Source: Candidatus Nomurabacteria bacterium (GTDB taxonomy: Bacteria > Patescibacteriota > Patescibacteriia > HK-STAS-PATE-3). Taken from it: a stretch of 64,000 nt of DNA. The notes under the pieces are model-generated. The model was not told the origin of the DNA, did not search any database, and saw only the letters and a list, made by a program, of their open reading frames with translations. The stretch spans positions 704,001-768,000 of the forward strand of contig CP060223.1 of assembly GCA_023898465.1 (NCBI GenBank), written 5' to 3'. Position numbers and translations under genes: made by a program. Positions 26,042 to 61,757 of this stretch are shown piece by piece. The stretch's first letter is position 1. Every line of letters starts with the position of its first letter.

Positions 26042-26081
26042 CTTCTCCTCCTTTGCTTCGTAGCGAATTGTGAATGAACAC

Positions 26082-27778: not shown

Positions 27779-28180
27779 GGGGATGCCCAATAATCGATCG
27801 ATCGTTCACAATCTGTGCAGGCAAGCCGGTCACCCAGGTCTCCCGTAACAGGCCCTGGAAAAAGCAAGTGTCAATTCATTTGCCAGCAAGGTAAAGAACT
27901 CCATTGCTAACGCAATGCAGTCACTCCAACTTGCGCCAGTTGTCGCGTAAAAACCGATAACCATCTATGCTTACGATGTCCTGAGTTGTTCGCATGGGTG
28001 CTACACTTATCAGGATAGGAACCTACCTTGTCTCGGGTTTGTTCCGAACTATTGAGACTAGGAAATAAATGATTTCGTTCGTTTCATACATTTGTTTCTG
28101 AAGCATTAAAGCGAACTAGGCTTGTAGAATGTACACGATTGTACGATGAGACGCGGGCGTGATACCCGCCATCTCCACCA
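27779..28180 (+). ncRNA. ssrA: candidate tmRNA (ssrA)
   Basis: Directly downstream of smpB; 5' GGGGAUG pairs with 3' CAUCUCC-A-CCA giving a G3-U70 wobble; T-arm GCGGG/cgugaua/CCCGC precedes the acceptor 3' strand; candidate tag reading frame GCU AAC GCA AUG CAG UCA CUC CAA CUU GCG CCA GUU GUC GCG UAA (ANAMQSLQLAPVVA) at 27906..27950. Confidence 0.55.
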
Positions 28181-30648: not shown

Positions 30649-30726
30649 TGGCGGGCCCGACCGGATTCGAACCGGCGATCTTCTCCGTGACAGGGAGACG
30701 TGTTAACCGGGCTACACCACGAGCCC
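30649..30726 (-). tRNA. tRNA-Asp (anticodon GTC), CCA encoded
   Basis: Reverse complement GGGCTCGTGGTGTAGCCCGGTTAACACGTCTCCCTGTCACGGAGAAGATCGCCGGTTCGAATCCGGTCGGGCCCGCCA folds as a cloverleaf: 7-bp acceptor, anticodon loop CUGUCAC, T-loop TTCGAAT, discriminator G. Confidence 0.85.
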
Positions 30727-30953
30727 ATCAAATAGACAACAAAATCTAGGAAATACGGATGAGAGTATATCAGTAACTTATTAAGCTGTCTAGGGTTTTA
30801 TTAGCCTTGAAAACCCCACCCTCCCCGGACCGCCGGAACAACTGACTGCGTCTCAGAAACACATGAGGAGAGAGTTCAATGCGCTTCAAGGAATACAGTC
30901 GGCTCCTGGCGGCCTGGGGAGAGGGTAACGACTAGGCGTTACCCTGTGTGTTG

Positions 30954-31139
30954 CTAGAGGTAGTGAGGCACGAAGAGAGGGCGTCGGCCGAAGTCAGGCC
31001 CTTTCCCTACGGGCTTAACAACCCGTCGTGTGAAACTCCTTCGATCTGTGTAGGTCGTCGCGATGCAGAGCTTATAACCCCGCTCCTCTGCGACCTGATC
31101 AGGATCGAAGTCAAAAACATCGACAGTGGACTTTGGCAT
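30954..31139 (-). CDS. small hypothetical protein (61 aa)
   Basis: GAGGAGG 5 nt upstream of ATG; high GC; shares the ..VD..D..E..Y...TTYT.R.. core with 31266..31619. Confidence 0.4.
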   Translation of the reverse strand: MPKSTVDVFDFDPDQVAEERGYKLCIATTYTDRRSFTRRVVKPVGKGPDFGRRPLFVPHYL

Positions 31140-31265
31140 GCAGACCTCCTCGGGTACTCAGCCTCTAGGGTTTGTACAAACTATTCCTCCTCTCACGCCT
31201 CCTCAAAAGAAGAAGTGAGAGGAGGAGAGCAAGTCAGTCGAAACTGCTTGCTCTCCAAAGAAAGA

Positions 31266-31619
31266 TCAACAGTGGTAGGTCTTCGGTCTCTGGCCTCCGA
31301 AAAGGCCGCGGTGCAGACCAGCGTCCGACCTCCTCGTCCTGCGCGGATTCAACCCGTCCTTGGGCGTACATCCGCGAGAAGTGTAGGTCGTCTGTCTCTG
31401 TGCGCCACCTACCCATGGAGCGTAGTTGACGCCGAGGTCGAGCTTCTCCCGAACCGAGAGGCTCGAGAGATCAACAGGACCGATTTGAGGATCGGATTTC
31501 GATTCCGGAGTGAAGTGATCCGTGACCTTCAGCCACGAACCATTCCCTTCTATCCGAACTGACCCTGGACGCGCGTGAATTCTACACATGCCTTCCCCCA
31601 TCTGCTTGCACTGATCCAT
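31266..31619 (-). CDS. hypothetical protein (up to 117 aa; true start uncertain), paralog of 30954..31139
   Basis: C-terminal 60 aa align to the 61-aa neighbour (PVDLSSLSVREKLDLGVNYA..TTYTSRG vs TVDVFDFDPDQVAEERGYKL..TTYTDRR); DNA-level imperfect repeat (CAACCCGTC..GTGTAGGTCGTC). Confidence 0.35.
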   Translation of the reverse strand: MDQCKQMGEGMCRIHARPGSVRIEGNGSWLKVTDHFTPESKSDPQIGPVDLSSLSVREKLDLGVNYAPWVGGAQRQTTYTSRGCTPKDGLNPRRTRRSDAGLHRGLFGGQRPKTYHC

Positions 31620-31724
31620 CAGTGCATGTAAAGGTCCATCTCTACTCCCAACCCCTTCTCACATTCCTGTGAAATGGGATAGGGGTACTTTAGCGGAAGC
31701 GCCTGCTTCTCGCAAGAATCAGCC

Positions 31725-31808
31725 ACCTCCCCTGGACACTCCTCCTCAATGAGGATTGCCCGGGGGAGGCCACGTACACCGATGCATAAGCCTCCGGTGG
31801 ACGTGGCT
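31725..31808 (-). promoter_or_regulatory. structured leader element C, copy 1 (two hairpins, core GUGUCCAGGGGAG)
   Basis: Read on the minus strand: CACGUCCACC..CGGUGUACGUG hairpin followed by CCCCGGG..CCUC..GAGG..GUGUCCAGGGGAG; homologous to 32602..32674. Confidence 0.55.
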
Positions 31809-32577
31809 AAAACAGTGAGTGGTACCAGGACCAAAGCTCAGCGCCCTTGAACAGAGCGAGAACTGCTGCTGGTGCCAGTAAAGAACCAAATGGAAGAGCT
31901 GCCGAGCTGCTCGCCCTGCCGAAGCGGATCAAGCTCAAGCCCAAGATACTACCAGCAGTAGACGCTAGCAGTACGGCAGCCAAGAAAGCAGCTGGACCAA
32001 GAAAGGCTCCAAGCATGAAAGCTAGCTTCACATCACCAAGCCCCATTCCTACCTGCCCACTTGCCTTCTTATAGAACCAGCCGATCAGGTAGAAACTTAC
32101 TCCTCCAGCCGCAGAGCCAGTGAGAGCTGGTACCAGGCCAATAGTCCAAGGTGAGAGCATCAATCCAAGTACAACTCCTCCCAAGCTGATTTCGTCGGGA
32201 ATGATCCGCTCGCGCCAATCCGTGAAGAAGACAACGAGCAGACCAAAGAAAAACAGCCAGGCGGAAAACCTCGGTATCATGTCAGGAATGGCAACGTAGA
32301 CCAGCAGGGCCAAGCCACCACCCAGCAGTTCAACCACAGGGTAGTGAAGCGAGATTGCTGACCGACAGTAGGCGCAACGCCCACGCAAAGCAATCCAGCT
32401 CAAGACTGGAACGAGATGCCAGGATCGAAGACGTCGACCACAGCATGGCGCGTATGACCTTGGCGTGCATACGCTCTCCCTAGGAGGGAGGCGATGAATG
32501 CACACATTAGCGAAACTGCCGAGCAAAGTGCCAACCATGAACACGAAGCTCGCAATCAGATACACACTTCCGTACAT
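31807..32577 (-). CDS. pilD: type IV prepilin peptidase (A24 family; PilD/ComC-like)
   Basis: N-terminal CxxC..CxxC zinc region (CTPRSYAPCCG..CAYCRSAI), polytopic A24 core; GGAGG 4 nt upstream of ATG. Confidence 0.8.
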   Translation of the reverse strand: MYGSVYLIASFVFMVGTLLGSFANVCIHRLPPRESVCTPRSYAPCCGRRLRSWHLVPVLSWIALRGRCAYCRSAISLHYPVVELLGGGLALLVYVAIPDMIPRFSAWLFFFGLLVVFFTDWRERIIPDEISLGGVVLGLMLSPWTIGLVPALTGSAAGGVSFYLIGWFYKKASGQVGMGLGDVKLAFMLGAFLGPAAFLAAVLLASTAGSILGLSLIRFGRASSSAALPFGSLLAPAAVLALFKGAELWSWYHSLF

Positions 32578-32686: not shown

Positions 32687-33097
32687 TTACTCGCGCTGCG
32701 GGGTCAGGACAAGGACGGACTCGCCATCCTTTCCATTGACCGTGATGCGATAGGAGGAGAAGAACTCGGCCGGATCGTAGTAGACCGCACCAGACTCCTT
32801 CCCAGCCTTGTCGTAGGACCCGACGTCGTAGACCGCCGTACCTCCGAAGGGATTCCGGATACTACGCCTGGCGTTCGCCACCCCAGCGATGGAATCCGGA
32901 TAGACTCCTCCGTTCGCTGTAGCCCAGTCATCGACCATGTCCTGCACTTCGTAGGCATTGGACTTGGCCGTCGACAGACGTGCCCTGTCCTGCAGCGCCA
33001 GGTAATTCGGGACGGCGATGAGCGCCAGGATCCCGATGATGACCACCACGATCATGAGCTCGATGAGGGTGAATCCCTCCTGATTCTTCCGAAGCAT
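32687..33097 (-). CDS. type IV pilin / pseudopilin (class III signal peptide)
   Basis: MLRKNQEG|FTLIELMIVVVIIGILALIA: Gly-1, Phe+1, Glu+5 prepilin signature; GAGGAGGAA SD upstream; ORF track extends to a TTG at 33163 but the ATG at about 33097 fits the leader-peptide length. Confidence 0.75.
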   Translation of the reverse strand: MLRKNQEGFTLIELMIVVVIIGILALIAVPNYLALQDRARLSTAKSNAYEVQDMVDDWATANGGVYPDSIAGVANARRSIRNPFGGTAVYDVGSYDKAGKESGAVYYDPAEFFSSYRITVNGKDGESVLVLTPQRE

Positions 33098-33149
33098 CAC
33101 TTCCTCCTCTCTGGCTTCACCGGCAGCCAGTTGCCGTTGTAGAGAATAT

Positions 33150-33235
33150 TTTTCTCTCCGCAATCCTTATTCCCTTCCTCCCCTTTCAAAAGGGGAGGCT
33201 AGGTGGGGTTAAGAACTCTGGAGAGAGGAGGAGGA
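33150..33235 (-). promoter_or_regulatory. structured leader element, family A/B, copy B1 (variant with CCUCCCC/GGGGAGG inner hairpin)
   Basis: Minus-strand reading CCUCCUCCUCUCUCCAGAG..[CCUCCCC uuuugaaa GGGGAGG]..UUGCGGAGAG about 50 nt upstream of the pilin SD; the 5' pyrimidine tract is complementary to the SD GAGAGGAGG. Confidence 0.55.
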
Positions 33236-37097: not shown

Positions 37098-37937
37098 TCA
37101 GCACCGCCATAGCTCCTCACCTCGCACCTCAATGCACACATCCCCTTCTTCAATAGTTGAGAGTATCTGGGCACCGCGCTGCTCCACTCGCTCAAGCGTT
37201 TCAGGGCTAGGATGCCCAAATTGATTATCTAGGCCCGCGGAAACTATAACGATGCTGGGCTCTACCGCATCCAACCAAGCATCACTGGAGGAGGTTTTTG
37301 AGCCATGATGACCCAACTTCAATACATCAGCATGGAGTGGTAAACCAGACTCCAGCATTTCCTTTTCCTCATCAAAGTCGGCGTCGCCAGTCAATATGAA
37401 TGATTTCGCGCCAACATCTAAGCGAGTAACTACTGAATAGCGATTTTGATCGTCTGGCTCCTTTCCTCGCCAATCACCTTTAGGTGCGAGGACGGTCAGC
37501 TCCGCACCAGGCAAACTATAGCGTTGACCAGGCTGCGCATAGAGTATCGTTACCCCCTGATCAACTAAGAGCTGGAGAAACTCCTGATAGGCGGGCAAGT
37601 AATGTTCCACTCCGGTGAGTAAAACGCTTTGCACATGATAACGATGTAGCACCTCAACAAAGCCTGTCACATGATCAGCGTCAGGATGTGTCAGCACAAG
37701 CAGTTCAATAGTGCGGTCAAAATATGGTAAACGCTCACCTAGCCGCTCAACAACGGTCATGTCAGCTCCTGCATCAGTCAACACGTCAAAATGTTGTAGC
37801 GCTTGAATAAGTATCGCGTCTCCCTGTCCAATATCTAGAGTAGTCACTCGCACGAAATGCACCTGACGATATGACCAGACAACATATCCTGCCACGAAAA
37901 TACACAGCACAAATAAAATGAGTCGTATTCGCTTCAT
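37098..37937 (-). CDS. comEC: ComEC C-terminal metallo-beta-lactamase domain protein
   Basis: VTTLDIGQGDAILI...HPDADHVTG MBL motifs characteristic of the ComEC nuclease domain; overlaps upstream ORF by 4 nt. Confidence 0.75.
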   Translation of the reverse strand: MKRIRLILFVLCIFVAGYVVWSYRQVHFVRVTTLDIGQGDAILIQALQHFDVLTDAGADMTVVERLGERLPYFDRTIELLVLTHPDADHVTGFVEVLHRYHVQSVLLTGVEHYLPAYQEFLQLLVDQGVTILYAQPGQRYSLPGAELTVLAPKGDWRGKEPDDQNRYSVVTRLDVGAKSFILTGDADFDEEKEMLESGLPLHADVLKLGHHGSKTSSSDAWLDAVEPSIVIVSAGLDNQFGHPSPETLERVEQRGAQILSTIEEGDVCIEVRGEELWRC

Positions 37938-39439
37938 GCCTGAGAAATTTTTAATGCTGCTCTTTGCCTCCTATCCAAATACCATACCCAGGCAAAAAGT
38001 CCGAAATAGAGAAGCAGCCACCAATATTGTCCTGTGGCAAAATGCAACAATGACCAATCCGGCAAAGCAAAAAATTCCACTACCATGATTACACCACGCA
38101 GTATGAGCCAGGTTGCCGCTCCAAATAGTATGCCAAGTGATAAAGAGAGCACGCTAAGTAAAAGCGCCGCCGTCCCGGCTGCCATGGCAAAAGGAATCAA
38201 GGGAAGGATGAGCACGTTCACAAATAAACTAACGAGAGACACTCGACCAAACACGCAGAGAATAAGTGGCAAGGTAAATAAGGAAGCGGCAATAGTGGCA
38301 GAGATGGTGCCCCGTATTTCAAAGCGCTCTGGCAAGAAATGCACCCAACGATCAACATGACCAGAAAGCAACATAAGTCCCAGGGTAGACCCAAAAGAGA
38401 GCTGAAAGCCCGCATCATCTAATAAGATGCGCGGGTTTACTAAAACCATACTTACCCCACTCAGCACGAGGGCATTTATCCCGCGACTCGGTCGACCTAC
38501 ATGTCCGGCAAAAGCGGCAATGCACCCCATAATACCTGCCCGCACAATCGACGCTTGGCCGCCCACAAAAATTACAAACAGCGAAATTGCTAAGAGGACA
38601 AACCAAAAGGCATGCCGGCGACCAATCGTTTTTATCGCCATCGACATGATGAGGTTTACAACAATGGTGATATTAAATCCTGACAGCGCAATGAGATGTG
38701 TCGTACCTGTCCGACCAAAGGCCTCTGTTAACCACTCAGGCAATCCGCGGCGCGCACCAACCAAGAGACCAGCCTCAAATGATGCTTCAGGCTCGGGTAG
38801 GATACGGGAGAGCTGCGCAGTCACCCACTCCCTCCCATCAATGAGCGCACCACTAAAACTCCAATGAGAGGATTGTACAAGATCGAAGTGGCGAGCACTG
38901 CAGGTTGTCGCAATTCCGGATAAGGCTAGATAACGATCATAGGCAAAATCCTCAATCGGCTCGGGATGACGCACAAAGCAGCTGAAGCTCACCTCATCAT
39001 TTAATCGAAAACGCGGATACAATAGCGCTCGCACTAAAATCTTTGCATCATTATTCTGTTCTGCACTTGTAATTTGATTATTAGAATTTGTTTTTTGTTT
39101 ATTGGTATTTGGAATTTGGGATTTGCTATTTGGGATTTCTATGGTGTACTTAATATGATCGCGGCGAATATCAGGCGCTGCTACAATCTGACCTTGCAGA
39201 CTAGTGTTCCCTTCAGGCAATTGAGCGAGCTCTGACACTACGGTTGCTCGCACTACACCAAGCGACAATCCAAAAAGACAAAGGAGCAACAGTGGTGCGC
39301 GCCGCCCTATAACGAAGATAATAAATACCCCGCAACAAAAAAGAAGCGGGTAAAGCAAAGGCAGAGAAATCCATCGGTAGAGACCTATACCGATGAGGAA
39401 AGAAATAAGTGTAGAGAGAAAAAGCTGGGAACGCGTCAT
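37934..39439 (-). CDS. comEC: ComEC/Rec2 family competence membrane channel domain protein
   Basis: DUF4131-like N-terminal region and Competence domain (LSGFNITIVVNLIM...GQASIVRAGIMG); contains N/K/Q-rich low-complexity insert. Confidence 0.75.
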   Translation of the reverse strand: MTRSQLFLSTLISFLIGIGLYRWISLPLLYPLLFCCGVFIIFVIGRRAPLLLLCLFGLSLGVVRATVVSELAQLPEGNTSLQGQIVAAPDIRRDHIKYTIEIPNSKSQIPNTNKQKTNSNNQITSAEQNNDAKILVRALLYPRFRLNDEVSFSCFVRHPEPIEDFAYDRYLALSGIATTCSARHFDLVQSSHWSFSGALIDGREWVTAQLSRILPEPEASFEAGLLVGARRGLPEWLTEAFGRTGTTHLIALSGFNITIVVNLIMSMAIKTIGRRHAFWFVLLAISLFVIFVGGQASIVRAGIMGCIAAFAGHVGRPSRGINALVLSGVSMVLVNPRILLDDAGFQLSFGSTLGLMLLSGHVDRWVHFLPERFEIRGTISATIAASLFTLPLILCVFGRVSLVSLFVNVLILPLIPFAMAAGTAALLLSVLSLSLGILFGAATWLILRGVIMVVEFFALPDWSLLHFATGQYWWLLLYFGLFAWVWYLDRRQRAALKISQA

Positions 39440-53606: not shown

Positions 53607-54743
53607 CTAGGACGAAGAGCTCGTCAAGCGGAAGCTCTGATACATCATATCAAAAGTCGTCTGGAAATTGAGTGCTGTCAGTTGGCTTACCGCGTAATGA
53701 ATCACGTAAATCTTATCAGCTTTTCCTAAGTACACATCCTCACCAGTCGGGCTCTTTACGCCTTCTAGACCATTCACCACCACATCCTCCAAATCACTGG
53801 AGCTCACGCCTGTATTTAGGGAAAGATAGTAATTTCGGGCGCTTAGCTTTGTTGGGTTATCCTCAACAATAACCTGGATAGTCTCACCAGTTGGATTCGT
53901 AGGCAAAAACTGCACAGTACGGCTATTTTGATCAGTAGCCGAAGCAACCCATTGGGTTGGATAGAGCATAGTGTAGTTAAAGCTGGTGTTGGTAAAGCTT
54001 CGCACTAAGCCTGTGGTATCTAAACGACCGATTCCGCGTGGATTGTAGCCGAGATAGACCTCACCAACGATTTCTGAGGCGCTGTTGACGCGCTTTCCGT
54101 CAATGAAGCCATCTCCATCAGTATCAGGTTGTGTGGCTTCGGTGCCATAGAGCTGCTCTTCCACATCGGTTAAACCATCATCATCGCTATCTAGGGTTGA
54201 TGGCAAAGGTTCAGTTCGAGTGCCCGTGGTATTCGTATTTGTCGTCGTATTTGTATTCGCGCTGTTCGTGTTGGTGGACGTATTGGTATTTTGATTCGTT
54301 ACCACACTATTCGTGTTCTGATTACTTACCGTGTTGGTATTTTGATTAGACACAGTATTCGTATTTCCATTCTCATTCCCATTCGTCACGTTCGCGTTAT
54401 TGGTATTCTGCGAAGCATTACTATTTGCTGAGGTGTTTGTGTTGCTGGTATTGAGATTAAGCTGGAAATTAGCCGCGTTTACGGTATTAGCATTGTCGTC
54501 AGCCGGAGACTGTACAAGGAAATAAACTGCCGCCGCAGCGCCTCCGCCGAGCAGTAAAGTAACCATAATGACAATCCAAAGCATGCGGTTTGGCTTGCCT
54601 GGTCGGCCTTTTTTCGCTTCTGGGTCCAAAAAACGATCCGGCATTACGTGGATATCATCGAAGTGCACCTTGGGGTTCTCGTTTGTATTTACCCCCGGTG
54701 TATTTTTTGGCTGTTGATCTTTGGAGTGATCTCTACCGAACAT
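53607..54743 (-). CDS. membrane-anchored protein with Asn/Thr-rich tandem repeats and thrombospondin type-3-like Ca-binding repeats
   Basis: TM anchor; NTNTVSNQ tandem repeats; DSDDDGLTDVEE / DTDGDGFIDG motifs. Confidence 0.55.
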   Translation of the reverse strand: MFGRDHSKDQQPKNTPGVNTNENPKVHFDDIHVMPDRFLDPEAKKGRPGKPNRMLWIVIMVTLLLGGGAAAAVYFLVQSPADDNANTVNAANFQLNLNTSNTNTSANSNASQNTNNANVTNGNENGNTNTVSNQNTNTVSNQNTNSVVTNQNTNTSTNTNSANTNTTTNTNTTGTRTEPLPSTLDSDDDGLTDVEEQLYGTEATQPDTDGDGFIDGKRVNSASEIVGEVYLGYNPRGIGRLDTTGLVRSFTNTSFNYTMLYPTQWVASATDQNSRTVQFLPTNPTGETIQVIVEDNPTKLSARNYYLSLNTGVSSSDLEDVVVNGLEGVKSPTGEDVYLGKADKIYVIHYAVSQLTALNFQTTFDMMYQSFRLTSSSS

Positions 54744-54751
54744 GACAAGCG

Positions 54752-55252
54752 TTATTGATTGACGTTGAGATTCGCGCGCGAGTTTTGAAAGTCGAGCAAC
54801 GAACCAGGTCCATTTGGATTAAAACGGTCTTTTACTTCTTCACCATCGAGAAATCCGTCACGGTCTGTATCGGCGACCAGCGGATCTGTCTGATATACCT
54901 CGACTTCTTCTCGATCGAATAAGAAATCAGAATCAGTGTCCACTCGAGTTGGGTCTGTGCCCAGCTCAGCCTCTTCGGCATCAGTAAGTCCATCCCCATC
55001 AGTGTCAGTCTCATCAGGATTTTGATCTGCTCCAGAACGTAATGACAGAGCATTTGTATTTGCACTGCTATTCGTGGTGCTATTGTTTACGCCGTTTTCT
55101 GTAGTGCTCTGTTTTGGCCAGTAGCGAAGAGCGAGGAGGACGATGATAAGAAGAGCAAGACTGACTATGAGTATACGAAGAATCAGCCCTTTTGACAATG
55201 CTCGAGATGGCTGAGATGAACTCATTTGTTGTTCAGGCGCTTCTTGGGGCAT
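54752..55252 (-). CDS. membrane-anchored protein with thrombospondin type-3-like repeats
   Basis: TDTDGDGLTDAEE, DTDSDFLFDREE, DTDRDGFLDGEE repeats. Confidence 0.55.
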   Translation of the reverse strand: MPQEAPEQQMSSSQPSRALSKGLILRILIVSLALLIIVLLALRYWPKQSTTENGVNNSTTNSSANTNALSLRSGADQNPDETDTDGDGLTDAEEAELGTDPTRVDTDSDFLFDREEVEVYQTDPLVADTDRDGFLDGEEVKDRFNPNGPGSLLDFQNSRANLNVNQ

Positions 55253-55255
55253 AAC

Positions 55256-58200
55256 TTATGGTCTCTGATAATTAAAGCATGAGCAGCTGGAATTTCCTAG
55301 CGTATCAAAACTGCAAGGGTCGCCCAGTGGAGCTCCGGTCCACTTCCCTGGTCCGTCATACTCCATTTCAGCATACAGGGAGTAATTATTTGCCTCTTTA
55401 CACACGCCAGATCCGCCGCAGTCAGCATTAGATCGACAGGCAACACCACTTCCCTCGCATACTCGACTGGAGATGTAGGCGTAAATATTTGAACCGTTAG
55501 GGTCGCAGTAGAAGGTCTTGGTAGGCTCATTCCAGCAGGTTGTTTGCTCGTAGCCAGCCGGACAGGATCCAAATTGGTTGAGTGGATCAACACTCATACT
55601 ACGGCCAAGTGCATTACCCAAAGTGCTTTGCCAAGAAGGCCACTTAGAAGTACTCATGCCGAGGAGGAAGCTACCAGCTTCAAGGGATGGATAATGGCCA
55701 TTACTGGTGAAGTACTTTTCTAAACCAATGCTGGTATCCTGCAGATCTGCCAGGCGCTTGGTGTCTCGAATAATTTTTGCCTTATTCTCCGGGCCAATAC
55801 TTCCATTGGTATTCATTTTAATACGATTCAACATTTGCTGAAAAATATTGCGAGTGGCATCGTTTGCTCCATCGTTATAAGAAAGCACAAAAATGTGCGG
55901 TACCAATGAAGGAATCGCGTCAAATAAGTTGGTGCCAGCTAAGTAGACAGTCCGCCCATCTCGTAAGGCCTGATAACCATCTATAGTAGTCGATGATGGA
56001 GTGCTCGTAGCAAATGGGAACTGACGACGGTACCATTCTAGCGGTGACAAACCTTCGGAGTTTTGATATACCCGCACGCCAATGGCATCAATAGCATTCG
56101 AATCTGCTTCTTTAAACAAATACTGCTTCTGTACGTCTCCGGTCTGTCCTTTGATAACCTGCAAGTCAAAATTCGGCAACGTACTGTCATTATCACGACA
56201 ATACCCTAGGTGGAAATGATAGTCCTCACACCCTCCGCCCAGACTACAATTTCCCGCACTATCATCAAAATTCCATGCATCTGCACATCGGAAATAATCC
56301 ACTAAGGCCGAGCCGCGTTTCTCAGTGCCATCAGTGCTAACAGAGGCGGTGGCGGAAATAACGGCTTGGCCATTTTCTGCACCGGTCTTTGCTACATTCG
56401 TCGCACTTCCATCCGGCAGCTCCTGAGGATCAGTTAAGGTCGCTACCGTCGTAGTATCAATATCCCAGGACCAATCCCATTCATAGACGCCTGGAATCTC
56501 ATTTATCGGCCCTGAATCACTGCGTGGAGTAGCAGTAAAGAGCTGCTCCTGTCCCTCGGTATCAGCATTCCAAAGCGCTGGAGTGATATCCACGCCGGTT
56601 AATGCGCACACGCTGTCACTATCCACGCTAGTAAAGACCCAGGAGTAATTTGGCATGAGTACGCCGTCTGCACCTCGCAAGCCGTTCAATTCCGTACGAT
56701 ACGCAGTGTTCTTTAAGAGCAGACCAGGGTTCACCCGCAGCTGCGTGGCACTCTTTGCCGTAAAGGTAATGGGGACGCTATTGCCTACGCATCCGCCTGT
56801 TGTACAAACACCTGAAGCACACTCAGTACCCTCCGAACATGCCTCACCTTCACTAAGGCCTCCATCTACGGTCACAATCACCGTATCTGTGGTCATCGTG
56901 CTGACGTCCATAGCCTGGGCAAAATTGGCTTCGATGCTGGTATTGCGACACACGTCAGTATCGCCTGGATTTGGTCGGGTGCTGCTCACACTTGGTTGCG
57001 GCGCACAGCAGCCGGAATTTGCACAGCCATTCCCTACTGAACAATCACTATCAGCCACACAAACCTGACAACTTGGTGCGGTAATGGTGAAAGGGAAAGC
57101 ATTGCTGTCCCCGGCAGCCTTATGCACCACAGTATTCACTGTACCAGTAGGCAGGCCAAGCGGCACTAACACGTCGATTAACGCATCCACCCAGCCATTA
57201 AAGACACTCACATCAATACCTGAGAAACGGACGGCATCGCTTGCTTCTTGTGTGCCAAAATTTTGACCAATAATTTTTACCGGCTGTGCCTCTTGGCCGC
57301 TGTTTGGTTGCAAGGCACAAATGCCAGGTAGGATATTGCTGTTTACATCAAAGTCAGGAAGTATGGGCTCGCCCGTCGCGGCGTCATTAGTGCTATCACT
57401 TACCCCGTCTAAGCCACGCACAACGGTGATCGGACCATCAACTGCATCATCACCAGCTGGTGTGTTTCGATTTGGCACCTCGCTCGCCACAATCACGTTG
57501 TTCCGCCACAGCGCAGGAGGATTTGGACAAATATCACTATTAGCCCACAGGCCTTCTTTATCGCTTGAGTAGCGTACCTGACTATTGCCAACGCAAGTAC
57601 CACCCGGACAATCATTGTAGGTAGTGGTACAGCTAGCACCGTCATTATCACCACCAGAGCAGGTACCTGCCACATAGGATCCGAAATAACAACCATTGAT
57701 GGTTAACCAAGTGCCAATATCTCCACCGTTTGGGCTATAACCAGTGATAACTGGAGTACAGCGATGTTCTGCATTGTTACAGGTGCTTCCTCCACAGAGG
57801 CCGCCCTGCGTACAGTCAGTTGTTTCGTCACACCAGAGGAAATCAATGGTGAGATCGGAAGTATCATATTTACCGCTCCATGAACCCCGCACAGTAGCGT
57901 AGTCAGGAGCAGGTGGAAGTGTTGTTTCTTGTACGGCATGTACCGTAGCTACATCGTCACTAGTATCAGAGTCTGTGGCAAAGTCAGCGTCACCGCTTGG
58001 ACTAACTGTCCAGGTCCAAGGCGTCCCATCAGTATCAATCTGCTGGCCTCCAGCATCACATTGATCAGGGGAAGCATAGGCTTTGCCATAGAAATTTCGT
58101 TCACCATCCTCAACAGTGATGAGCTGGCTAGGAGGCGTCACGGTAACGTGGTCAACCGCGCAAGAGCTTGGGTCATCTTTTGTTCTGAAAGTCCACTGAT

Positions 58201-60850
58201 AAGCTGGAGAGCCAAGGTAGGTCGTATTGGTATTCCCGATTTCCTCTCCACTTGATCCTAATACTCCACCGGGGCCGCCAATTAAGAGTGCAGCATACCA
58301 CTGACTAATCTGCAGTGAACCAACTGGATCAAACTCCAGGCGATCGGTGGCTGCATCATAGGTAATCCCCTCCACGCCGACATTGCCAGTAAAGCTGGTA
58401 CAACTGGCATCTGAGCACTTACGCAAAAGTATAGTGCTGGTAGTCAAAGTGCTCGCATTAATATCGATGCTCGAAGGGCCAAAAGTATTGTGCAGCACCA
58501 CGTTCGGACAAACTGCCTGGCAAGTAGGCCAAGGGTCGGTAACAAAAATTTGATTCGGTGGATAATCCTGTACCGTAAACGGGACTGGGTTTGAATCATT
58601 ATCACTCGCGTCAGTCACATAGACTGGGTGGGTGTTACTCGCTGCACCGCTCGGCACTTGTGACATGGCTGACGTATCAGACCAGCTGGAAATCGTAGCG
58701 GGCTGTCCGTTGTAATAAGTTACCCCGCCGGTAGCTGAACCAAAGCGGACACCGCGTGCCTCAACAGTCTGACCTCGATATCCGCTGCTTGGACTCATCG
58801 AAGCAAGGCAAGGACCCTGAGCGGCCGTATCAGAGTTTACTGAAAAAGCGATATTCGTATTTGATTCCTGCGTACCATAGGCCCCGTCGTCGTAATCAAT
58901 GGTTACCTGTGTGTACACCGAATTACCATTGCTGTAATCCTCAGGAATCGTCGTGACAATGTAGTTTGGTGCAGCTGGGTCATTGAGGCGCGGCGAAGTA
59001 TTGGTCGGCGGCGGAAAAGCCGGGTCAGTATCAAAGTCAGGATCACGCGGCTGAGCACTATGCGTATCAGTGCCAGTGAAACAACTTCCATAAATAGTCA
59101 CGCATTGCCCAGGTGGACCGTTGTTTGGATTTATGGCTGCTACAAAAGGCACACAGGTACAATTTTCTGCATCAGTGACACTGAAATTCCAATTACCTGC
59201 CAGAGTATTTCCATCGCCATCGATTTCTCGATCAGTGGTGATGCGGACATTGAAGTCAGAATTCTGACTCAGGTCATTATTCGGATCAAATTGGTATACC
59301 TTGAAACCGGCATTTGGCGAGCCTGGATTTGGATCAATGATGCGGAAGACGCCGCCCAAGCCAGCCACTTCGTAATCTGGCCCTGGCATTGAGGAGGGAG
59401 CCGGCATGGTTGCACTCATATCTACACCCGGTGTGGCAGGATTATCAATCTCGATAGTTACTGAGTAATCCCACATCGATAGGGTGAAGACTGTAGTAAT
59501 ATTTGTGCTTGGGCAAACATTTCCGCCCTGTGGGTCATAGGCAGCAATACCAGCCGTCAAATCATTGGTTTGGAATTCCCACACTTCGGGCGGTTGTAAG
59601 CCGTTTCCACACAGATCTTCTACGTTTTGTACCGTGATGCGATACCAAGTGAAAGACTCCAACATGGCGCCGTCAGTGAATCGAATATCTACCCGATTAT
59701 CTCCACCTGAGCTAACAACAAGGGAGTCACTGGAGACTGTTCCAATCACTGCGCCACCCTCTCCATCAAGCTGCTGGAGATCAAAAATGCCTGGAATAGG
59801 ATGACTATCAACATCAGCCAAGGAGCTAATATCAATTGCCTCACTAAACCAAATCGAGAGTAAAGGATCGCGTGGTACGTTTCGATCTGGATATCCTGGC
59901 TCAGCACTGATCACCGGGTAAGCTGAACTAACGCTAGGCACCGTCTCATCAACTACATCATTGGTAGTGAAATTCCAGCGATAATGATCACCCGCATCAA
60001 CACAGCCACCGTCAGCGGTACAGTTCGTTAAGCTCAAACCGCCAGTGCTCTCTAAGGTTTTTGGAATGAATAACGTGTAATCAGCAAATGAGTCAAAAAG
60101 CTCATCTGGATGCTTAAAGGTGAGGCTCTTATCTGATGAAGTGAAGATACCAGACACCTCAGCTCCCCCACCGGCATGTTCAAGCTTCAATGGATTGGTC
60201 GCGTCATTCACTGCCGCCTCCACCGTTGCCGAATCAACATTTAAATTGAAACGCGGCATCACTCGACTGCAACGATTCACGTTTTGAGAATTGTCCGGCC
60301 CATCATGCGCAGTTAAAATTTCATTCACGGTAAATTGACTACTTGGCAGCATACAAAGGGGTGATGGGTCAGGTACATTACACTGCGTCCCAGACGCATC
60401 ACAAAGCAGACAAACTCCGCATGGTAAACCCGGATCACACGAATAGGTGTCGCCATTGGTGACATTACTTACCGTGTTGATGACAAAGGTAACAATGGCC
60501 CAGGAAATGAGAATAATAACGAGACCAACTGCCGCGCTGATGATAATCTGTTTTGCTTTATCAACCTTGTCGGCATTTCCACCAGCCGTCATCCAAATAT
60601 ACCCACCGTAGATAACAAAAACTACCGCTACCAGGGCCATAATACCGAGAGCCCAACGGATGATATTTATGATAACGTCTTTGAGATCAGCCGTACCCAG
60701 ACCGATTGAGCTGCCGATGTTTTCTATGGTAAAAGCTGTCGACTGTGCAGCCGCCGGTGCAGGATGAAAAGCTACACTAAGGGCGAGTAAGATACCCCCA
60801 GTAAAAATAACCCCTGTAATGATTCCGAGTAATAGTCGTTTCACAAGCAT
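55256..60850 (-). CDS. giant Cys-rich surface protein (1864 aa) with N-terminal TM-hairpin domain resembling T4SS pilin (TrbC/VirB2-like)
   Basis: Signal/TM, then ALGIMALVAVVFVIYGGYIWMTAGGNADKVDKAKQII..VGLVIILISWAIV hairpin; about 1700 aa of Cys/Thr/Asp-rich beta-rich ectodomain. Confidence 0.65.
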   Translation of the reverse strand: MLVKRLLLGIITGVIFTGGILLALSVAFHPAPAAAQSTAFTIENIGSSIGLGTADLKDVIINIIRWALGIMALVAVVFVIYGGYIWMTAGGNADKVDKAKQIIISAAVGLVIILISWAIVTFVINTVSNVTNGDTYSCDPGLPCGVCLLCDASGTQCNVPDPSPLCMLPSSQFTVNEILTAHDGPDNSQNVNRCSRVMPRFNLNVDSATVEAAVNDATNPLKLEHAGGGAEVSGIFTSSDKSLTFKHPDELFDSFADYTLFIPKTLESTGGLSLTNCTADGGCVDAGDHYRWNFTTNDVVDETVPSVSSAYPVISAEPGYPDRNVPRDPLLSIWFSEAIDISSLADVDSHPIPGIFDLQQLDGEGGAVIGTVSSDSLVVSSGGDNRVDIRFTDGAMLESFTWYRITVQNVEDLCGNGLQPPEVWEFQTNDLTAGIAAYDPQGGNVCPSTNITTVFTLSMWDYSVTIEIDNPATPGVDMSATMPAPSSMPGPDYEVAGLGGVFRIIDPNPGSPNAGFKVYQFDPNNDLSQNSDFNVRITTDREIDGDGNTLAGNWNFSVTDAENCTCVPFVAAINPNNGPPGQCVTIYGSCFTGTDTHSAQPRDPDFDTDPAFPPPTNTSPRLNDPAAPNYIVTTIPEDYSNGNSVYTQVTIDYDDGAYGTQESNTNIAFSVNSDTAAQGPCLASMSPSSGYRGQTVEARGVRFGSATGGVTYYNGQPATISSWSDTSAMSQVPSGAASNTHPVYVTDASDNDSNPVPFTVQDYPPNQIFVTDPWPTCQAVCPNVVLHNTFGPSSIDINASTLTTSTILLRKCSDASCTSFTGNVGVEGITYDAATDRLEFDPVGSLQISQWYAALLIGGPGGVLGSSGEEIGNTNTTYLGSPAYQWTFRTKDDPSSCAVDHVTVTPPSQLITVEDGERNFYGKAYASPDQCDAGGQQIDTDGTPWTWTVSPSGDADFATDSDTSDDVATVHAVQETTLPPAPDYATVRGSWSGKYDTSDLTIDFLWCDETTDCTQGGLCGGSTCNNAEHRCTPVITGYSPNGGDIGTWLTINGCYFGSYVAGTCSGGDNDGASCTTTYNDCPGGTCVGNSQVRYSSDKEGLWANSDICPNPPALWRNNVIVASEVPNRNTPAGDDAVDGPITVVRGLDGVSDSTNDAATGEPILPDFDVNSNILPGICALQPNSGQEAQPVKIIGQNFGTQEASDAVRFSGIDVSVFNGWVDALIDVLVPLGLPTGTVNTVVHKAAGDSNAFPFTITAPSCQVCVADSDCSVGNGCANSGCCAPQPSVSSTRPNPGDTDVCRNTSIEANFAQAMDVSTMTTDTVIVTVDGGLSEGEACSEGTECASGVCTTGGCVGNSVPITFTAKSATQLRVNPGLLLKNTAYRTELNGLRGADGVLMPNYSWVFTSVDSDSVCALTGVDITPALWNADTEGQEQLFTATPRSDSGPINEIPGVYEWDWSWDIDTTTVATLTDPQELPDGSATNVAKTGAENGQAVISATASVSTDGTEKRGSALVDYFRCADAWNFDDSAGNCSLGGGCEDYHFHLGYCRDNDSTLPNFDLQVIKGQTGDVQKQYLFKEADSNAIDAIGVRVYQNSEGLSPLEWYRRQFPFATSTPSSTTIDGYQALRDGRTVYLAGTNLFDAIPSLVPHIFVLSYNDGANDATRNIFQQMLNRIKMNTNGSIGPENKAKIIRDTKRLADLQDTSIGLEKYFTSNGHYPSLEAGSFLLGMSTSKWPSWQSTLGNALGRSMSVDPLNQFGSCPAGYEQTTCWNEPTKTFYCDPNGSNIYAYISSRVCEGSGVACRSNADCGGSGVCKEANNYSLYAEMEYDGPGKWTGAPLGDPCSFDTLGNSSCSCFNYQRP

Positions 60851-60872: not shown

Positions 60873-61322
60873 TCAGCCGCTTAATTGCGACTTCACTATG
60901 GCTTGCACGGTCGCGCCATCAGCCTGACCTTTCGTTTTTGGCATAACTGCTGCCATTACCTTTCCCATATCCCCTAGGGAGCTAGCCCCTGTCTCAATAA
61001 TGGCTTCTTGGACGAACTTGGTAATATCTGCTTCAGACATTTGGGCTGGTAAATACTTCCCAATTGCCTCATATTCTGCCTTTTCTTGCTCTGCCAGCTC
61101 TGTTCGGCCGGCTTTGCTATACATATCCATAGCTTCTTTGCGCCGTTTCTGTTCGCGTTTCAGGACCTTCAAAACTTCTTCATCATCCAAAACCTCTTTT
61201 TTCAAGTCAATTTCTTCATTTTTCATGACTGATTTCAGATAGCGCAAAACCGCCACGGCGGTCTTGTCGCTAGAGACAAATGCTTTTTTATAGTCCTCTT
61301 CGATTGTCTGTTGGAGTCCCAT
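60873..61322 (-). CDS. GatB/YqeY domain-containing protein
   Basis: 149 aa; YqeY-like sequence (LKSVMKNEEIDLKK...). Confidence 0.75.
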   Translation of the reverse strand: MGLQQTIEEDYKKAFVSSDKTAVAVLRYLKSVMKNEEIDLKKEVLDDEEVLKVLKREQKRRKEAMDMYSKAGRTELAEQEKAEYEAIGKYLPAQMSEADITKFVQEAIIETGASSLGDMGKVMAAVMPKTKGQADGATVQAIVKSQLSG

Positions 61323-61326
61323 TCAG

Positions 61327-61608
61327 CTATGTTCTTACTGAGGGTAAACGCGGTCCACTTGGTCGGCCGCCCTTGCGCTTCCGTCGATCCAATTCAGGAA
61401 GCTTTCCCATTTTACGAAGGAGCTCATTTCGATCCTTGATTTCTTTGCGTCGAATTGCGCTCTCACGAATTGCCCGCTTACTGCGAGGCGCTTCGTAATA
61501 TCTTCCTTTTTTTGCTCTTATGAGTAAGCCGCTTTGTTGGACTCGTTTGGTGAAGCGTCTGAGCAAGCTTTCAGTAGACTCACCGTCTTTCTTCTTTACT
61601 TCTACCAC
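61327..61608 (-). CDS. rpsU: 30S ribosomal protein S21
   Basis: VEVKKKDGESTESLLRRFTKRVQQSGLL..YYEAPRSKR aligns with the S21 consensus. Confidence 0.7.
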   Translation of the reverse strand: MVEVKKKDGESTESLLRRFTKRVQQSGLLIRAKKGRYYEAPRSKRAIRESAIRRKEIKDRNELLRKMGKLPELDRRKRKGGRPSGPRLPSVRT

Positions 61609-61757
61609 CGAGATAATTCACCTCCTTACTGAGATGCCCTGTCCGATAGACAGGCCTACGCGCAAACACGCGTACCGAACTTTTAAAGTAAAAAAAATAT
61701 ACCACTTTCTATGGGCCTATGTCAAATGGAAATATACCGCCCTAGATGGGACTTTAG

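What the first reader, a model, noticed from the sequence alone, without database searches (positions are those of the whole stretch)
55256..60850. 1864-aa Cys-rich surface protein with T4SS-pilin-like N-terminal hairpin, preceded by two TSP3-repeat proteins
The N-terminal roughly 120 aa of the giant protein resemble TrbC/VirB2-type pilin TM hairpins (GGYIWMTAGGNADKVDKAKQ between two hydrophobic helices). They are fused to an enormous Cys/Thr/Asp-rich ectodomain. The two upstream genes carry thrombospondin type-3 Ca-binding repeats (DxDxDGxxDxxE). Such giant envelope proteins are typical of episymbiotic small-genome bacteria and may mediate host attachment.
Basis: partly seen in the sequence, partly recalled or inferred. 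Interest (0 to 1): 0.55.

Follow-up and report, generated by a model that had tools for sequence, protein, structure and literature searches.

The report
Giant surface fibre built on a conjugative-type pilin
A tiny-genome (Patescibacteria) bacterium encodes a 1,864-residue surface fibre whose first ~130 residues are a complete conjugative-pilus-type (VirB2-like) pilin, kept very similar to the cell's own small pilins. This suggests a so far undescribed "modular pilin" that could be how these bacteria reach and grip their hosts.

Summary
Window 55256-60850 (minus strand) is one 1,864-aa ORF with 60 Cys. Its N-terminus has a signal peptide plus two ~35-residue hydrophobic helices joined by NADKVDKAKQ. 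It scores above Pfam's threshold for T4SS_pilin (PF18895).

One correction: the two TSP3 genes lie downstream in transcription, not upstream.

New findings:
1. The ectodomain has a Cys knot, 11 beta-sandwich domains, and a conserved tip. The tip is a PsbP/Mog1-like domain plus a type-IV-pilin-like head (fold-level evidence only).
2. The pilin module is the best-conserved part of the protein. It is 72% identical to a 122-aa stand-alone pilin of the same genome. In a distant lineage the giant module and its own pilin are 73-74% identical, while orthologous giants are only 34% identical. Synonymous sites are saturated, so this is not recent gene conversion.
3. S21-YqeY-giant-TSP3a-TSP3b is syntenic across lineages that are 31-37% identical.
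4. TSP3b carries a paralogue of the giant's PsbP-like domain.
5. Pilin-module fusions to large Ig-like or lectin ectodomains are widespread in Patescibacteria. I found no paper describing them.

Best reading: a modular VirB2-family pilin that presents an adhesive tip. Whether it enters a pilus or stays membrane-anchored is unresolved. Novelty: new variant of a known kind.

The parts
55256..60850 (-). Giant ORF of 1,864 aa. Identical to NCBI 'Ig-like domain-containing protein' from Candidatus Nomurabacteria (P0001).
60743..60850 (-). Signal peptide, residues 1-36 (MLVKR...APAAAQ|STAF). This is the least conserved part of the protein (22% mean pairwise identity).
60455..60742 (-). VirB2-like pilin module, residues 37-132. 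It has an exposed N-terminal segment, helix 56-91, a Lys-rich loop NADKVDKAKQ, helix 96-131, and the pilin-type C-terminal SNVT motif at the fusion point. PF18895 matches residues 56-123.
60296..60454 (-). Cys-rich junction ('knot'), residues 133-185, with six Cys between 138 and 166. It resembles no other region of the protein.
56297..60295 (-). Stalk of 11 beta-sandwich domains, residues 186-1518. Big_5-like: 186-296, 301-428, 430-565, 763-893, 1285-1410. TIG: 566-670, 675-762, 1036-1175, 1176-1260. Third type: 894-1005 and 1411-1518. The block [TIG-TIG-Big_5-third type] is duplicated. Cys-rich linkers lie at about 1006-1035 and 1261-1284.
55811..56296 (-). PsbP/Mog1/LpqN/DcrB-like alpha/beta domain, residues about 1519-1680. 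First half of the conserved tip cassette.
55259..55810 (-). Type-IV-pilin / pseudopilin-like head, residues about 1681-1864. A long helix (1686-1717, motif RDTKRLADL...LEKYFTSNGHYP) packs on a beta-sheet, with a Cys-rich insertion. There is no prepilin leader and no hydrophobic alpha1-N.
54752..55252 (-). TSP3a, 166 aa. N-terminal TM anchor (residues about 22-44), N/S/T-rich linker, and three TSP3 Ca-binding repeats. Starts 3 nt after the giant's stop codon.
53607..54743 (-). TSP3b, 378-aa ORF (probable true start M34 at 54644, giving 345 aa). TM anchor, N/T-rich linker, 1-2 TSP3 repeats, and a C-terminal PsbP/Mog1-like domain paralogous to the giant's.
60873..61608 (-). Conserved upstream genes of the same apparent transcription unit: S21 (61327-61608) and YqeY/GatB-like (60873-61322). 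YqeY ends 22 nt before the giant's start codon.
61696..61725 (-). Best sigma-70-like promoter match (11 of 12, with TG) upstream of S21. No convincing terminator lies between S21 and dgkA. This is a consensus match only.

Best explanation
The gene encodes a modular VirB2-family pilin.

Shown:
- The first ~132 residues are a complete conjugative-type pilin. They comprise a Sec signal peptide, an exposed N-terminal segment, two ~35-residue hydrophobic helices, a short Lys-rich loop, and even the N-V-T motif with which stand-alone pilins end.
- A 1,730-residue acidic, disulfide-rich ectodomain is grafted onto the pilin's C-terminal end.
- The ectodomain is a Cys knot, 11 beta-sandwich domains, and a conserved two-domain tip: a PsbP/Mog1-like domain plus a type-IV-pilin-like head.
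- The module is under stronger constraint than any other part of the protein. It stays 64-73% identical to the 'class-1' stand-alone pilins of the same genome.

Inferred:
- After signal-peptidase cleavage the hairpin sits in the membrane like an ordinary pilin, with both ends outside and the loop inside.
- Because it has to stay compatible with the cell's own pilins, it is handled by the same assembly machinery. It may be taken up as a rare or terminal subunit of the VirB2-type filament. In solved F-type pili the C-terminus faces outward, so the fusion would point away from the filament. Alternatively it packs with the pilin pool at the filament base.
- The stalk would be about 45-50 nm long, assuming ~4 nm per domain. 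It presents the tip cassette to a ligand on another cell, probably an envelope glycan or protein.
- The two co-transcribed, membrane-anchored TSP3 proteins are Ca2+-binding partners. TSP3b carries a paralogue of the giant's PsbP-like domain.

My estimates for the sub-claims:
- Exported, membrane-anchored surface fibre with a genuine pilin module: about 0.9.
- Functional coupling to the VirB2-like pilin system: about 0.5.
- Adhesion to a host cell: about 0.5.
For: Pilin module:
- It passes Pfam PF18895, as do all 17 homologues. Some also hit TrbC/VirB2.
- A profile of giant N-termini retrieves 2,001 proteins. The best 120 are almost all 103-150-aa stand-alone pilins. The top hit, P0055, comes from the same 1.08-Mb contig and is 70-72% identical.
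- Giant modules are as close to stand-alone pilins as to each other. Medians are 0.37-0.60 against 0.34-0.56.
- The module is the most conserved region of the protein: 52% mean pairwise identity, against 27-41% for the stalk and 22% for the signal peptide.

Co-variation with the cognate pilin:
- P0031 and its genome's pilin P0138 are 73-74% identical, including the exposed N-terminal segment. P0031 is only 34% identical to the three other giants compared (59% to its closest listed giant, P0028), and P0138 only 37-39% to the other pilins compared.
- Within pilin arrays the module matches only one paralogue class (60-73%). It matches other array members at 32-52%.
- Four-fold sites are saturated: 11/30, 6/25, 8/22 and 9/23 identical. 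The similarity is therefore maintained at the protein level and is not recent conversion.

Topology:
- In the F/pED208 pilus the alpha2-alpha3 loop faces the lumen, and the N- and C-termini lie outside (PMC5018250).

Tip cassette:
- The cassette and the module are the two conserved ends of the protein.
- Orthologues carry CBM_4_9-like insertions in the cassette.

Partner proteins:
- S21-YqeY-giant-TSP3-TSP3 is conserved in five loci.
- A second protein family fuses the cassette directly to TSP_3 repeats.

Context:
- A T4SS ATPase gene lies next to a PF18895 pilin in related genomes.
- CPR-clade VirB4 is present in 2,407 of about 3,026 Patescibacteria assemblies, and no PrgB-type adhesin was found in them (PMC12102498).
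Against: - The gene is not in a T4SS locus or a pilin array. It sits in a housekeeping operon next to ybeY-dgkA-ftsA-ftsZ, and there are no T4SS genes in the 64-kb window. By locus-tag numbering the stand-alone pilin is about 180 genes away.
- I could not show that this genome encodes VirB4.
- No Patescibacteria VirB2-type pilus has been seen experimentally. The reviews speak only of a 'potential' pilus.
- A 1,730-aa ectodomain cannot sit on every subunit of a filament.
- Own-genome preference is clear in two of four genome pairs and marginal in the other two. For P0009, 62-64% against 58-63% to foreign pilins (67% to the best foreign pilin in the wider set). For P0016, 65-70% against 58-65%.
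- The type-IV-pilin-like head rests on fold similarity of modest Z and a motif. Sequence profiles find no solved pilin. hhalign against the window's own pilin gives E 0.1. Pfam T2SSG reaches only E 0.05, in 2 of 13 homologues.
- Binding to a host is not tested at all.
Confidence: 0.5

Rival explanations
1. Static anchor. The hairpin is only a two-helix membrane anchor recruited from a pilin gene. The protein is an ordinary fibrillar adhesin that never interacts with pilins or a T4SS.
For: - The housekeeping location is far from T4SS genes and pilin arrays.
- Many other Patescibacteria proteins of 659 to more than 2,100 aa carry the same N-terminal module on Ig-like or lectin ectodomains, as expected of a generic anchor.
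- The huge ectodomain is sterically awkward in a filament.
Against: - Membrane anchors usually keep hydrophobicity, not sequence. Here the module is the most conserved region, including the exposed 20-residue pre-helix segment and the loop.
- It stays within one pilin paralogue class and follows the cognate pilin across deep divergence, with synonymous sites saturated.
- The helices are about 35 residues long, as in pilins, which is longer than a bilayer needs.
Confidence: 0.3
2. Envelope or S-layer-like structural protein. The giant and the two TSP3 proteins form a Ca2+-stabilised surface layer or envelope spacer tied to growth and division, not to host contact.
For: - It appears vertically inherited in every locus examined, at a conserved housekeeping position beside ftsA/ftsZ or mreC/PBP2.
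- The protein is strongly acidic, and its partners carry Ca-binding TSP3 repeats.
- TSP3b and the giant share a domain that could mediate lattice contacts.
Against: - An elongated single-chain stalk of 11 beta-sandwich domains with a distinct tip is the architecture of fibrillar adhesins, not of lattice-forming S-layer proteins.
- The tip cassette varies by CBM-like and Cys-rich insertions, as expected of ligand recognition.
- Synteny with division genes breaks in L099, while S21-YqeY-giant-TSP3-TSP3 persists.
Confidence: 0.12
3. Released effector or exoprotein. The ectodomain is cleaved off after the Cys knot and acts away from the cell, with the pilin module serving only as an export or processing handle.
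For: The junction after helix 2 is a distinct Cys-rich linker. T4SS-dependent protein export has been proposed for Patescibacteria (PMC10633639).
Against: No protease site or autoprocessing domain was found. The stalk-plus-tip design makes sense only if one end is held in place.
Confidence: 0.05
4. Artefact. The fusion of a pilin gene to a large ORF results from misassembly or a missed stop codon.
For: None found.
Against: - The identical protein is encoded on three independently assembled contigs.
- 54 homologues at 24-59% identity all have the same N-terminal module and Big_5 or TIG domains.
- The reading frame is continuous.
Confidence: 0.01

Closest known systems
VirB2/TrbC/TraA conjugative (T4SS) pilins, and the Patescibacteria VirB2-like pilins of Pfam PF18895 (Wang et al. 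2023, PMC10633639; Quinonero-Coronel et al. 2025, PMC12102498)
   Same: Signal peptide, two long hydrophobic helices, a short basic loop, and Pfam membership. The module is 60-73% identical to stand-alone class-1 pilins of the same genomes.
   Different: About 15 times longer, with a 1,730-aa ectodomain on the C-terminus. It is not in a T4SS cluster or pilin array. It cannot be cyclised like T- or P-type pilins. It is unlikely to form a homopolymer.
Modular type IV pilins, in which a pilin module carries a bulky grafted functional module (e.g. Streptococcus sanguinis PilB/PilC; recalled from memory, not checked here)
   Same: The design principle: a polymerisation or anchor module identical in kind to the major pilin, with a functional module grafted on the end that points outward.
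   Different: A different, unrelated pilin superfamily (T4SS VirB2-type rather than type IV pilin). The graft is an order of magnitude larger. Incorporation into a filament has not been shown.
Fibrillar adhesins of bacteria (stalks of repeated Ig-like domains with a distal binding domain)
   Same: Eleven tandem Big_5, TIG or other beta-sandwich domains, an acidic and Ca-associated context, and a distinct conserved distal cassette.
   Different: The anchor is a pilin hairpin rather than an LPXTG/sortase signal, a T1SS retention module or an autotransporter. The tip is a PsbP-like plus pilin-like pair not described as an adhesin domain.
Type IV pilin / T2SS pseudopilin (GspG/PulG/EpsG, PilA) globular head
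   Different: It is an internal C-terminal domain without a class III leader, N-methylation site or hydrophobic alpha1-N. No significant sequence-profile match was found.
PsbP/Mog1/LpqN/DcrB-like alpha/beta domains
   Different: Only 9-16% sequence identity, with no known shared function. Here the domain is paired with a pilin-like head or with TSP3 repeats.
Pam pili of CPR bacteria (bioRxiv 10.64898/2026.03.03.709456)
   Same: CPR-specific surface filaments built from Ig-like folds and thought to reach the host.
   Different: Pam pilins polymerise by donor-strand exchange with chaperones. They have no VirB2-like hairpin.

Membership tests
T4SS_pilin (Pfam PF18895) / VirB2-TrbC superfamily | Sequence match above the curated Pfam threshold | tested here: met
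   35.6 bits on the full protein and 41 bits on the N-terminus, against a cut-off of 26.6. All 17 homologue N-termini match, and three also hit PF04956 TrbC. NCBIfam Mbov_0395 pilin-like scores 26-31 bits, below its cut-off of 40.
T4SS_pilin (Pfam PF18895) / VirB2-TrbC superfamily | Cleavable signal peptide followed by two long hydrophobic helices joined by a short basic loop | tested here: met
   Hydropathy segments at 2-32, 56-91 and 96-131, with loop NADKVDKAKQ and an AAAQ|S cleavage-type site shared with P0055.
T4SS_pilin (Pfam PF18895) / VirB2-TrbC superfamily | Small stand-alone protein of about 70-150 aa | tested here: not met
   1,864 aa. The top 120 family hits are 103-235 aa.
T4SS_pilin (Pfam PF18895) / VirB2-TrbC superfamily | Encoded next to virB4 or other T4SS genes, or in a pilin array | tested here: not met
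   No further pilin module or T4SS ATPase in the 64-kb window. The neighbours are housekeeping genes.
T4SS_pilin (Pfam PF18895) / VirB2-TrbC superfamily | Polymerises into a T4SS-dependent filament | not testable with these tools
   Needs microscopy or proteomics. Only indirect support from co-variation with the cognate pilins.
Type IV pilin / pseudopilin | Class III leader with G|F(T/S)L(I/L)E and hydrophobic alpha1-N | tested here: not met
   The head is an internal domain preceded by polar sequence (NTNGSIGPENKAKIIRD). The motif scan finds only the separate pilin at 32687-33163.
Type IV pilin / pseudopilin | Alpha1-C helix packed on an antiparallel beta-sheet (pilin head fold) | tested here: inconclusive
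Type IV pilin / pseudopilin | Significant sequence-profile match (Pfam T2SSG / N_methyl, or solved pilins) | tested here: not met
   T2SSG E 0.05 in 2 of 13 homologues. No PDB pilin at E<=10. hhalign against the window's own pilin gives E 0.1.
Bacterial TSP3 repeat proteins (PF18884) | DxDxDGxxDxxE Ca-binding repeats above the Pfam threshold | tested here: met
   TSP3a scores 45.9 bits against 25 and has three repeats. TSP3b has one full repeat and scores 10 bits, so it does not pass on its own. Homologues in L003, L099 and P0318 do pass.
Fibrillar adhesin | Stalk of tandem repeated beta-sandwich domains between an anchor and a distal domain | tested here: met
   Five Big_5-like, four TIG and two third-type domains, by Pfam and internal hhalign.
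Fibrillar adhesin | Demonstrated binding of the distal domain to a target | not testable with these tools
   Only hints: conservation of the cassette and CBM_4_9-like insertions in orthologues, just below threshold.
PsbP/Mog1-like fold | Alpha/beta sandwich fold match to solved members | tested here: met

The most novel reading that the evidence does not exclude
Patescibacteria VirB2-type filaments, whose pilin arrays are essential for epibiotic growth in the one species tested, carry giant modular pilins. A full conjugative-type pilin would serve as the polymerisation foot of a ~50-nm Ig-like stalk, ending in a PsbP-like plus type-IV-pilin-like tip that recognises the host. With Ca2+-binding TSP3 partners, this would fill the role that VirB5 or PrgB adhesins play in other T4SSs. 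It would be the first modular pilin of the conjugative-pilus superfamily, and a chimera of elements from the two unrelated pilus worlds.
Probability: 0.3. Interest if true: 0.8.

Novelty: new variant of a known kind. Interest (0 to 1): 0.62.

Why it matters
Patescibacteria make up a large share of bacterial diversity and live attached to other cells. Their VirB2-like pilins and T4SS are essential in the only genetically tractable species (PMC10633639). Nobody knows what those pilins build or what recognises the host. No PrgB-type adhesin was found in about 3,000 genomes (PMC12102498).

A conserved, syntenic family of giant proteins that begin as a bona fide copy of the cell's own pilin gives a concrete candidate for the missing adhesin. 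It also gives testable predictions: co-purification with filaments, module-swap experiments, and co-evolution across genomes.

It would extend the 'modular pilin' principle from type IV pili to the unrelated conjugative-pilus family.

Even if the module is only an anchor, the result is useful. It defines a widespread, unannotated anchoring mode, a new tip cassette found in more than 1,500 protein clusters, and a three-gene module (giant plus two TSP3 proteins).

Tried and rejected
1. Sequence-profile searches of the N-terminal module and of the head or tip against all PDB chains found no pilins, only chance hits such as designed 'Pizza' proteins, a GPCR and an antibody.
2. hhalign of the head against the window's own type IV pilin gave E 0.1. 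No other type IV pilin was present in the fetched loci to build a profile.
3. The afdb50 fold library was unavailable. Foldseek against PDB confirmed only the PsbP-like half.
4. I tried to find the stand-alone pilin's locus and a virB4 gene in this genome. The genome is not among the GTDB representatives. The exact-protein look-ups returned only a 627-bp contig for P0055 and a Logan contig for the giant. Look-ups in the T4SS paper's supplement by locus tag and genome size found nothing.
5. The recent-gene-conversion explanation for the module/pilin similarity is rejected. Four-fold sites are saturated in all four genome pairs.
6. The head-domain profile search of 1.84 billion representatives did not reach genuine prepilins among its top 150. 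The short hits are contig-end fragments of giants.
It was redone with database homologues.
8. The Pam pilus system of CPR was considered and set aside, because it uses donor-strand exchange and has no hairpin.
Full report
**1. What is at the coordinates**

Window 55256..60850 holds one uninterrupted ORF of 1,864 aa on the minus strand. It has 60 Cys (3.2%), is rich in G, T, S and D, and carries a net charge of about -129.

Hydropathy shows exactly three hydrophobic segments: residues 2-32, 56-91 and 96-131. The first is a signal peptide ending ...APAAAQ|STAF.

The gene is on the minus strand, so the two TSP3 genes at 54752..55252 and 53607..54743 are downstream of it, not upstream. The real upstream genes are YqeY, S21, HIT and HisRS. 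Further downstream lie YbeY, DgkA, FtsA, FtsZ, NrdR and a ribonucleotide reductase.

Intergenic gaps are 22, 3, 8 (or 107) and 3 nt. The only strong promoter-like site lies upstream of S21, and no convincing terminator follows it. The arrangement therefore looks like one transcription unit. This rests on consensus scans only.

**2. The N-terminus is a genuine conjugative-type pilin module**

- Pfam T4SS_pilin (PF18895) matches residues 56-123 above its curated threshold (35.6 and 41 bits against 26.6). NCBIfam's Mbov_0395 pilin-like family scores just below its cut-off.
- All 17 homologue N-termini tested hit PF18895. Three also hit TrbC/VirB2 PF04956 at E down to 7.6e-5.
- A profile of these N-termini retrieved 2,001 proteins. 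The best 120 are almost all 103-150-aa stand-alone pilins, several named 'pilin' or 'VirB2 component' by their sources.
- The single best hit, P0055 (122 aa, H6760_04670), comes from the same 1,082,586-bp contig as the giant. It is 70-72% identical over the mature module.
- The fusion point is the exact end of a pilin. Stand-alone pilins typically end ...ANVTT: 101 of 181 have an NxS/T sequon in their last 12 residues, against 4% in shuffles. The giant reads ...INTVSNVTNG before it enters a Cys-rich junction.
- No second module and no T4SS gene occurs in the 64-kb window.

**3. The family and its genomic setting**

The giant is identical to an NCBI protein named only 'Ig-like domain-containing protein' from Candidatus Nomurabacteria. 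It has 54 listed homologues of 1,068-3,235 aa. All carry PF18895 with Big_5 and/or TIG, and those with a clear source name are named Patescibacteria/CPR; two partial entries carry other names.

In loci of homologues only 31-37% identical, the order is conserved: signal peptidase I, HisRS, (HIT), S21, YqeY, giant, TSP3 protein(s), YbeY, DgkA, FtsA, FtsZ, NrdR. In the most divergent locus the core S21-YqeY-giant-TSP3-TSP3 persists but is followed by MreC/PBP2.

The giants are therefore orthologues inherited vertically, and giant plus TSP3 proteins form a stable module.

**4. Anatomy of the ectodomain**

Pfam on segments, plus profile-profile comparison of slices of the 28-sequence alignment, gives the following:
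- A unique Cys knot at 133-185.
- Five Big_5-like domains: 186-296, 301-428, 430-565, 763-893, 1285-1410.
- Four TIG domains: 566-670, 675-762, 1036-1175, 1176-1260.
- Two copies of a third beta-rich domain: 894-1005 and 1411-1518.
- The block [TIG-TIG-Big_5-third type] is duplicated.

The last 350 residues had no Pfam hit. An AlphaFold2 model (pLDDT 80.6, pTM 0.81) shows two subdomains.
- The helix carries the motif RDTKRLADL...LEKYFTSNGHYP. From my own knowledge this resembles the alpha1-C region of Gram-positive and CPR pilins and of GspG.

The sequence evidence for the pilin-like head is weak:
- Pfam T2SSG reaches E 0.05 in 2 of 13 homologues.
- No solved pilin appears in profile searches.
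- hhalign against the window's own pilin gives E 0.1.
- Foldseek confirms only the PsbP-like half.

I therefore call the head pilin-like at fold level with moderate confidence. It is not a member of the type IV pilin family, because it lacks the leader and the hydrophobic alpha1-N.

**5. Which parts are constrained**

Among 28 giants the mean pairwise identities are:
- Pilin module: 52%, the highest.
- Head: 42%.
- PsbP-like domain: 40%.
- Stalk domains: 27-41%.
- Signal peptide: 22%.

Both ends of the molecule are the functional ends.

**6. The module follows the cell's own pilins**

Four genome-matched pairs could be assembled.
- Window giant and P0055: 72%. The same module is 57-62% identical to giants of two other lineages and 61-62% to their pilins.
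- P0031 and P0138: 73-74%. P0031 is 34% identical to the three other giants compared (59% to its closest listed giant, P0028), and P0138 is 37-39% identical to the other pilins compared. The shared sequence includes the unusual exposed segment EMNNGLENFRSAANY.NTDLPTAMGRIM.
- P0016 and its array pilins: 65-70%.
- P0009 and its array pilins: 62-64%. This last pair shows no clear own-genome preference.

In related genomes the stand-alone pilins lie in arrays with a fixed order. A solute-binding protein comes first, then a 330-387-aa PF18895+PG_binding_1 protein, a 'class-2' pilin, two or three 'class-1' pilins, and finally GT-C-type glycosyltransferases. The giant's module resembles only class 1 (60-73%). 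It matches the other array members at 32-52%.

Across 54 giants and 185 pilins, giant modules are no closer to one another than to stand-alone pilins.

At the DNA level, four-fold degenerate sites of identical residues are saturated: 11/30, 6/25, 8/22 and 9/23 identical. The protein similarity is therefore maintained by selection, or dates from an old exchange. It is not recent gene conversion.

An ancient duplication followed by independent drift would not leave P0031's module twice as similar to its own pilin as to orthologous modules.

**7. The partners**

- TSP3a (166 aa) is a TM anchor, a linker and three TSP3 repeats.
- TSP3b is a TM anchor, an N/T-rich linker, one or two TSP3 repeats and a C-terminal domain.
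- Its profile aligns with the giant's PsbP-like domain (hhalign 96.9%, E 1.5e-10).
- A profile of the head domain finds 1,516 clusters among 1.84 billion representatives. Most are proteins of 1,500-6,860 aa.
- A second architecture places the PsbP-like+head cassette directly after a signal peptide, followed by eukaryote-type TSP_3 repeats in five of seven proteins tested.

This fusion is Rosetta-stone-type evidence that the cassette and TSP3 repeats work together.

**8. Breadth of the phenomenon**

A metagenome scan with another giant's module returned mostly long proteins. Seven that are not close family members all have PF18895 at the N-terminus, followed by Big_5, TIG, Big_7 and, in two of them, Laminin_G_3 lectin-like domains. 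They range from 659 to more than 2,100 aa.

Pilin-module fusions are thus a common design in Patescibacteria.

**9. Mechanism**

Shown: a complete pilin module, an outward-facing graft point, a stalk, a conserved tip cassette, conserved TSP3 partners, and constraint and co-variation of the module.

From established knowledge:
- VirB2/TraA pilins sit in the membrane with both ends outside.
- In the F/pED208 pilus the loop faces the lumen and both termini lie on the outside (PMC5018250).
- Pili grow from the base under a tip complex (PMC12857230).
- CPR-clade VirB4 is present in 2,407 of about 3,026 assemblies. VirB2-like pilins occur widely, and no PrgB-type adhesin was detected (PMC12102498).
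- The pilin array is essential in Southlakia (PMC10633639).
- In related genomes a T4SS ATPase gene lies immediately upstream of a PF18895 pilin.

Inferred: the giant is inserted like a pilin and is recognised by the same machinery or packs with the same pilins. It is either a rare or terminal filament subunit or a foot at the filament base. The stalk is about 45-50 nm long at ~4 nm per domain. The tip binds a ligand on another cell. This last point is hinted at by CBM_4_9-like insertions in orthologues, just below Pfam's threshold. The TSP3 proteins act as Ca2+-dependent partners.

The main rival is that the hairpin is merely an anchor. I give it 0.3 because of the housekeeping location, the steric problem, and the absence of any direct evidence for a Patescibacteria VirB2 pilus.

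**10. Novelty**

VirB2-like pilins and pilin arrays of Patescibacteria are published. In the searched literature I found no description of giant proteins built on that module, of the tip cassette, or of the giant-TSP3 module. The one study that scanned for PF18895 discusses only pilins the size of small proteins.

I rate this a new variant of a known kind.

**Limits**
- Only four genome-matched pairs, of which two are clearly informative.
- The T4SS status of this genome is unknown.
- No functional test of binding or assembly.

Noticed in passing
window 31807-32577 (-) and 32687-33163 (-): A prepilin peptidase (Peptidase_A24) lies next to a genuine type IV pilin (GFTLIELMIVV...). The organism therefore also has a type IV pilus system, separate from the VirB2-like pilins.
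   Followed up: partly
window 37098-39439 (-): ComEC (Competence + DUF4131) followed by a metallo-beta-lactamase-fold protein: a DNA-uptake channel. The same pairing of ComEC near RF-1, HtrA and polysaccharide deacetylase appears in locus L004.
   Followed up: no
window 29830-30570 (-): A DsbD/CcdA-type thiol-disulfide transporter. It fits the need to manage disulfides in a 60-Cys extracellular protein.
   Followed up: no
window 27779-28180 (+) and 30652-30726 (-): tmRNA (74 bits) and one tRNA. The ~1-kb stretch 30730-31800 between the tRNA and PilD has no convincing ORF and no Rfam hit.
   Followed up: partly
window 13400-15376 (-) and 24761-26146 (-): A 658-aa DUF11-repeat surface protein, and a 461-aa ORF with no Pfam family at all.
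   Followed up: no
L014 6431-12420; L012 6702-12860; L006 7069-11660: Stand-alone pilins lie in arrays with a fixed order. A solute-binding protein comes first, then a 330-387-aa protein combining PF18895 with PG_binding_1 in the one tested (the 387-aa L014 protein), a 'class-2' pilin, and two or three 'class-1' pilins. GT-C-type membrane glycosyltransferases follow (DUF2079, GT87, MptA_B). Class-1 pilins end in an N-V-T sequon (101 of 181, against 4% expected), which raises the possibility that these pilins are glycosylated.
   Followed up: partly
L066 6603-9296, L068 7356-9986, L069 1337-4069, L070 2473-5094: In related (Kerfeldbacteria-type) genomes a T4SS ATPase of 874-911 aa (T4SS-DNA_transf/TrwB/TraG-D_C) lies immediately upstream of a further PF18895 pilin. 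This pilin is distinct from the ones in the arrays.
   Followed up: partly
P0206, P0228, P0229, P0282, P0213 (proteins): A second protein family of 680-1,020 aa places the PsbP-like + pilin-like-head cassette right after a signal peptide. Eukaryote-type thrombospondin type 3 repeats (PF02412) follow it.
   Followed up: partly
C-terminal cassettes of P0011, P0014 and P0031 (P0012 and P0016 carry a similar insertion, not scanned); P0024/26/29/32: Some orthologues carry a ~150-aa CBM_4_9-like insertion in or before the head (E 2.7e-5 to 1.3e-2, just under threshold). Others have a Cys-rich DUF4215-like C-terminal extension (the one tested scored E 0.003, below threshold). The tip is the variable, probably ligand-facing end.
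   Followed up: partly
window 56297-59155 (-), giant residues 566-1518: The stalk contains an internal duplication of a four-domain block [TIG-TIG-Big_5-third type]: residues 566-1005 and 1036-1518. Each copy is preceded by a short Cys-rich linker.
   Followed up: yes
window 54644-54743 (-): The start of TSP3b is ambiguous. The longest ORF begins at 54743, but the NCBI model and the conserved N-terminus 'MPDRF' point to M34 at 54644.
   Followed up: partly
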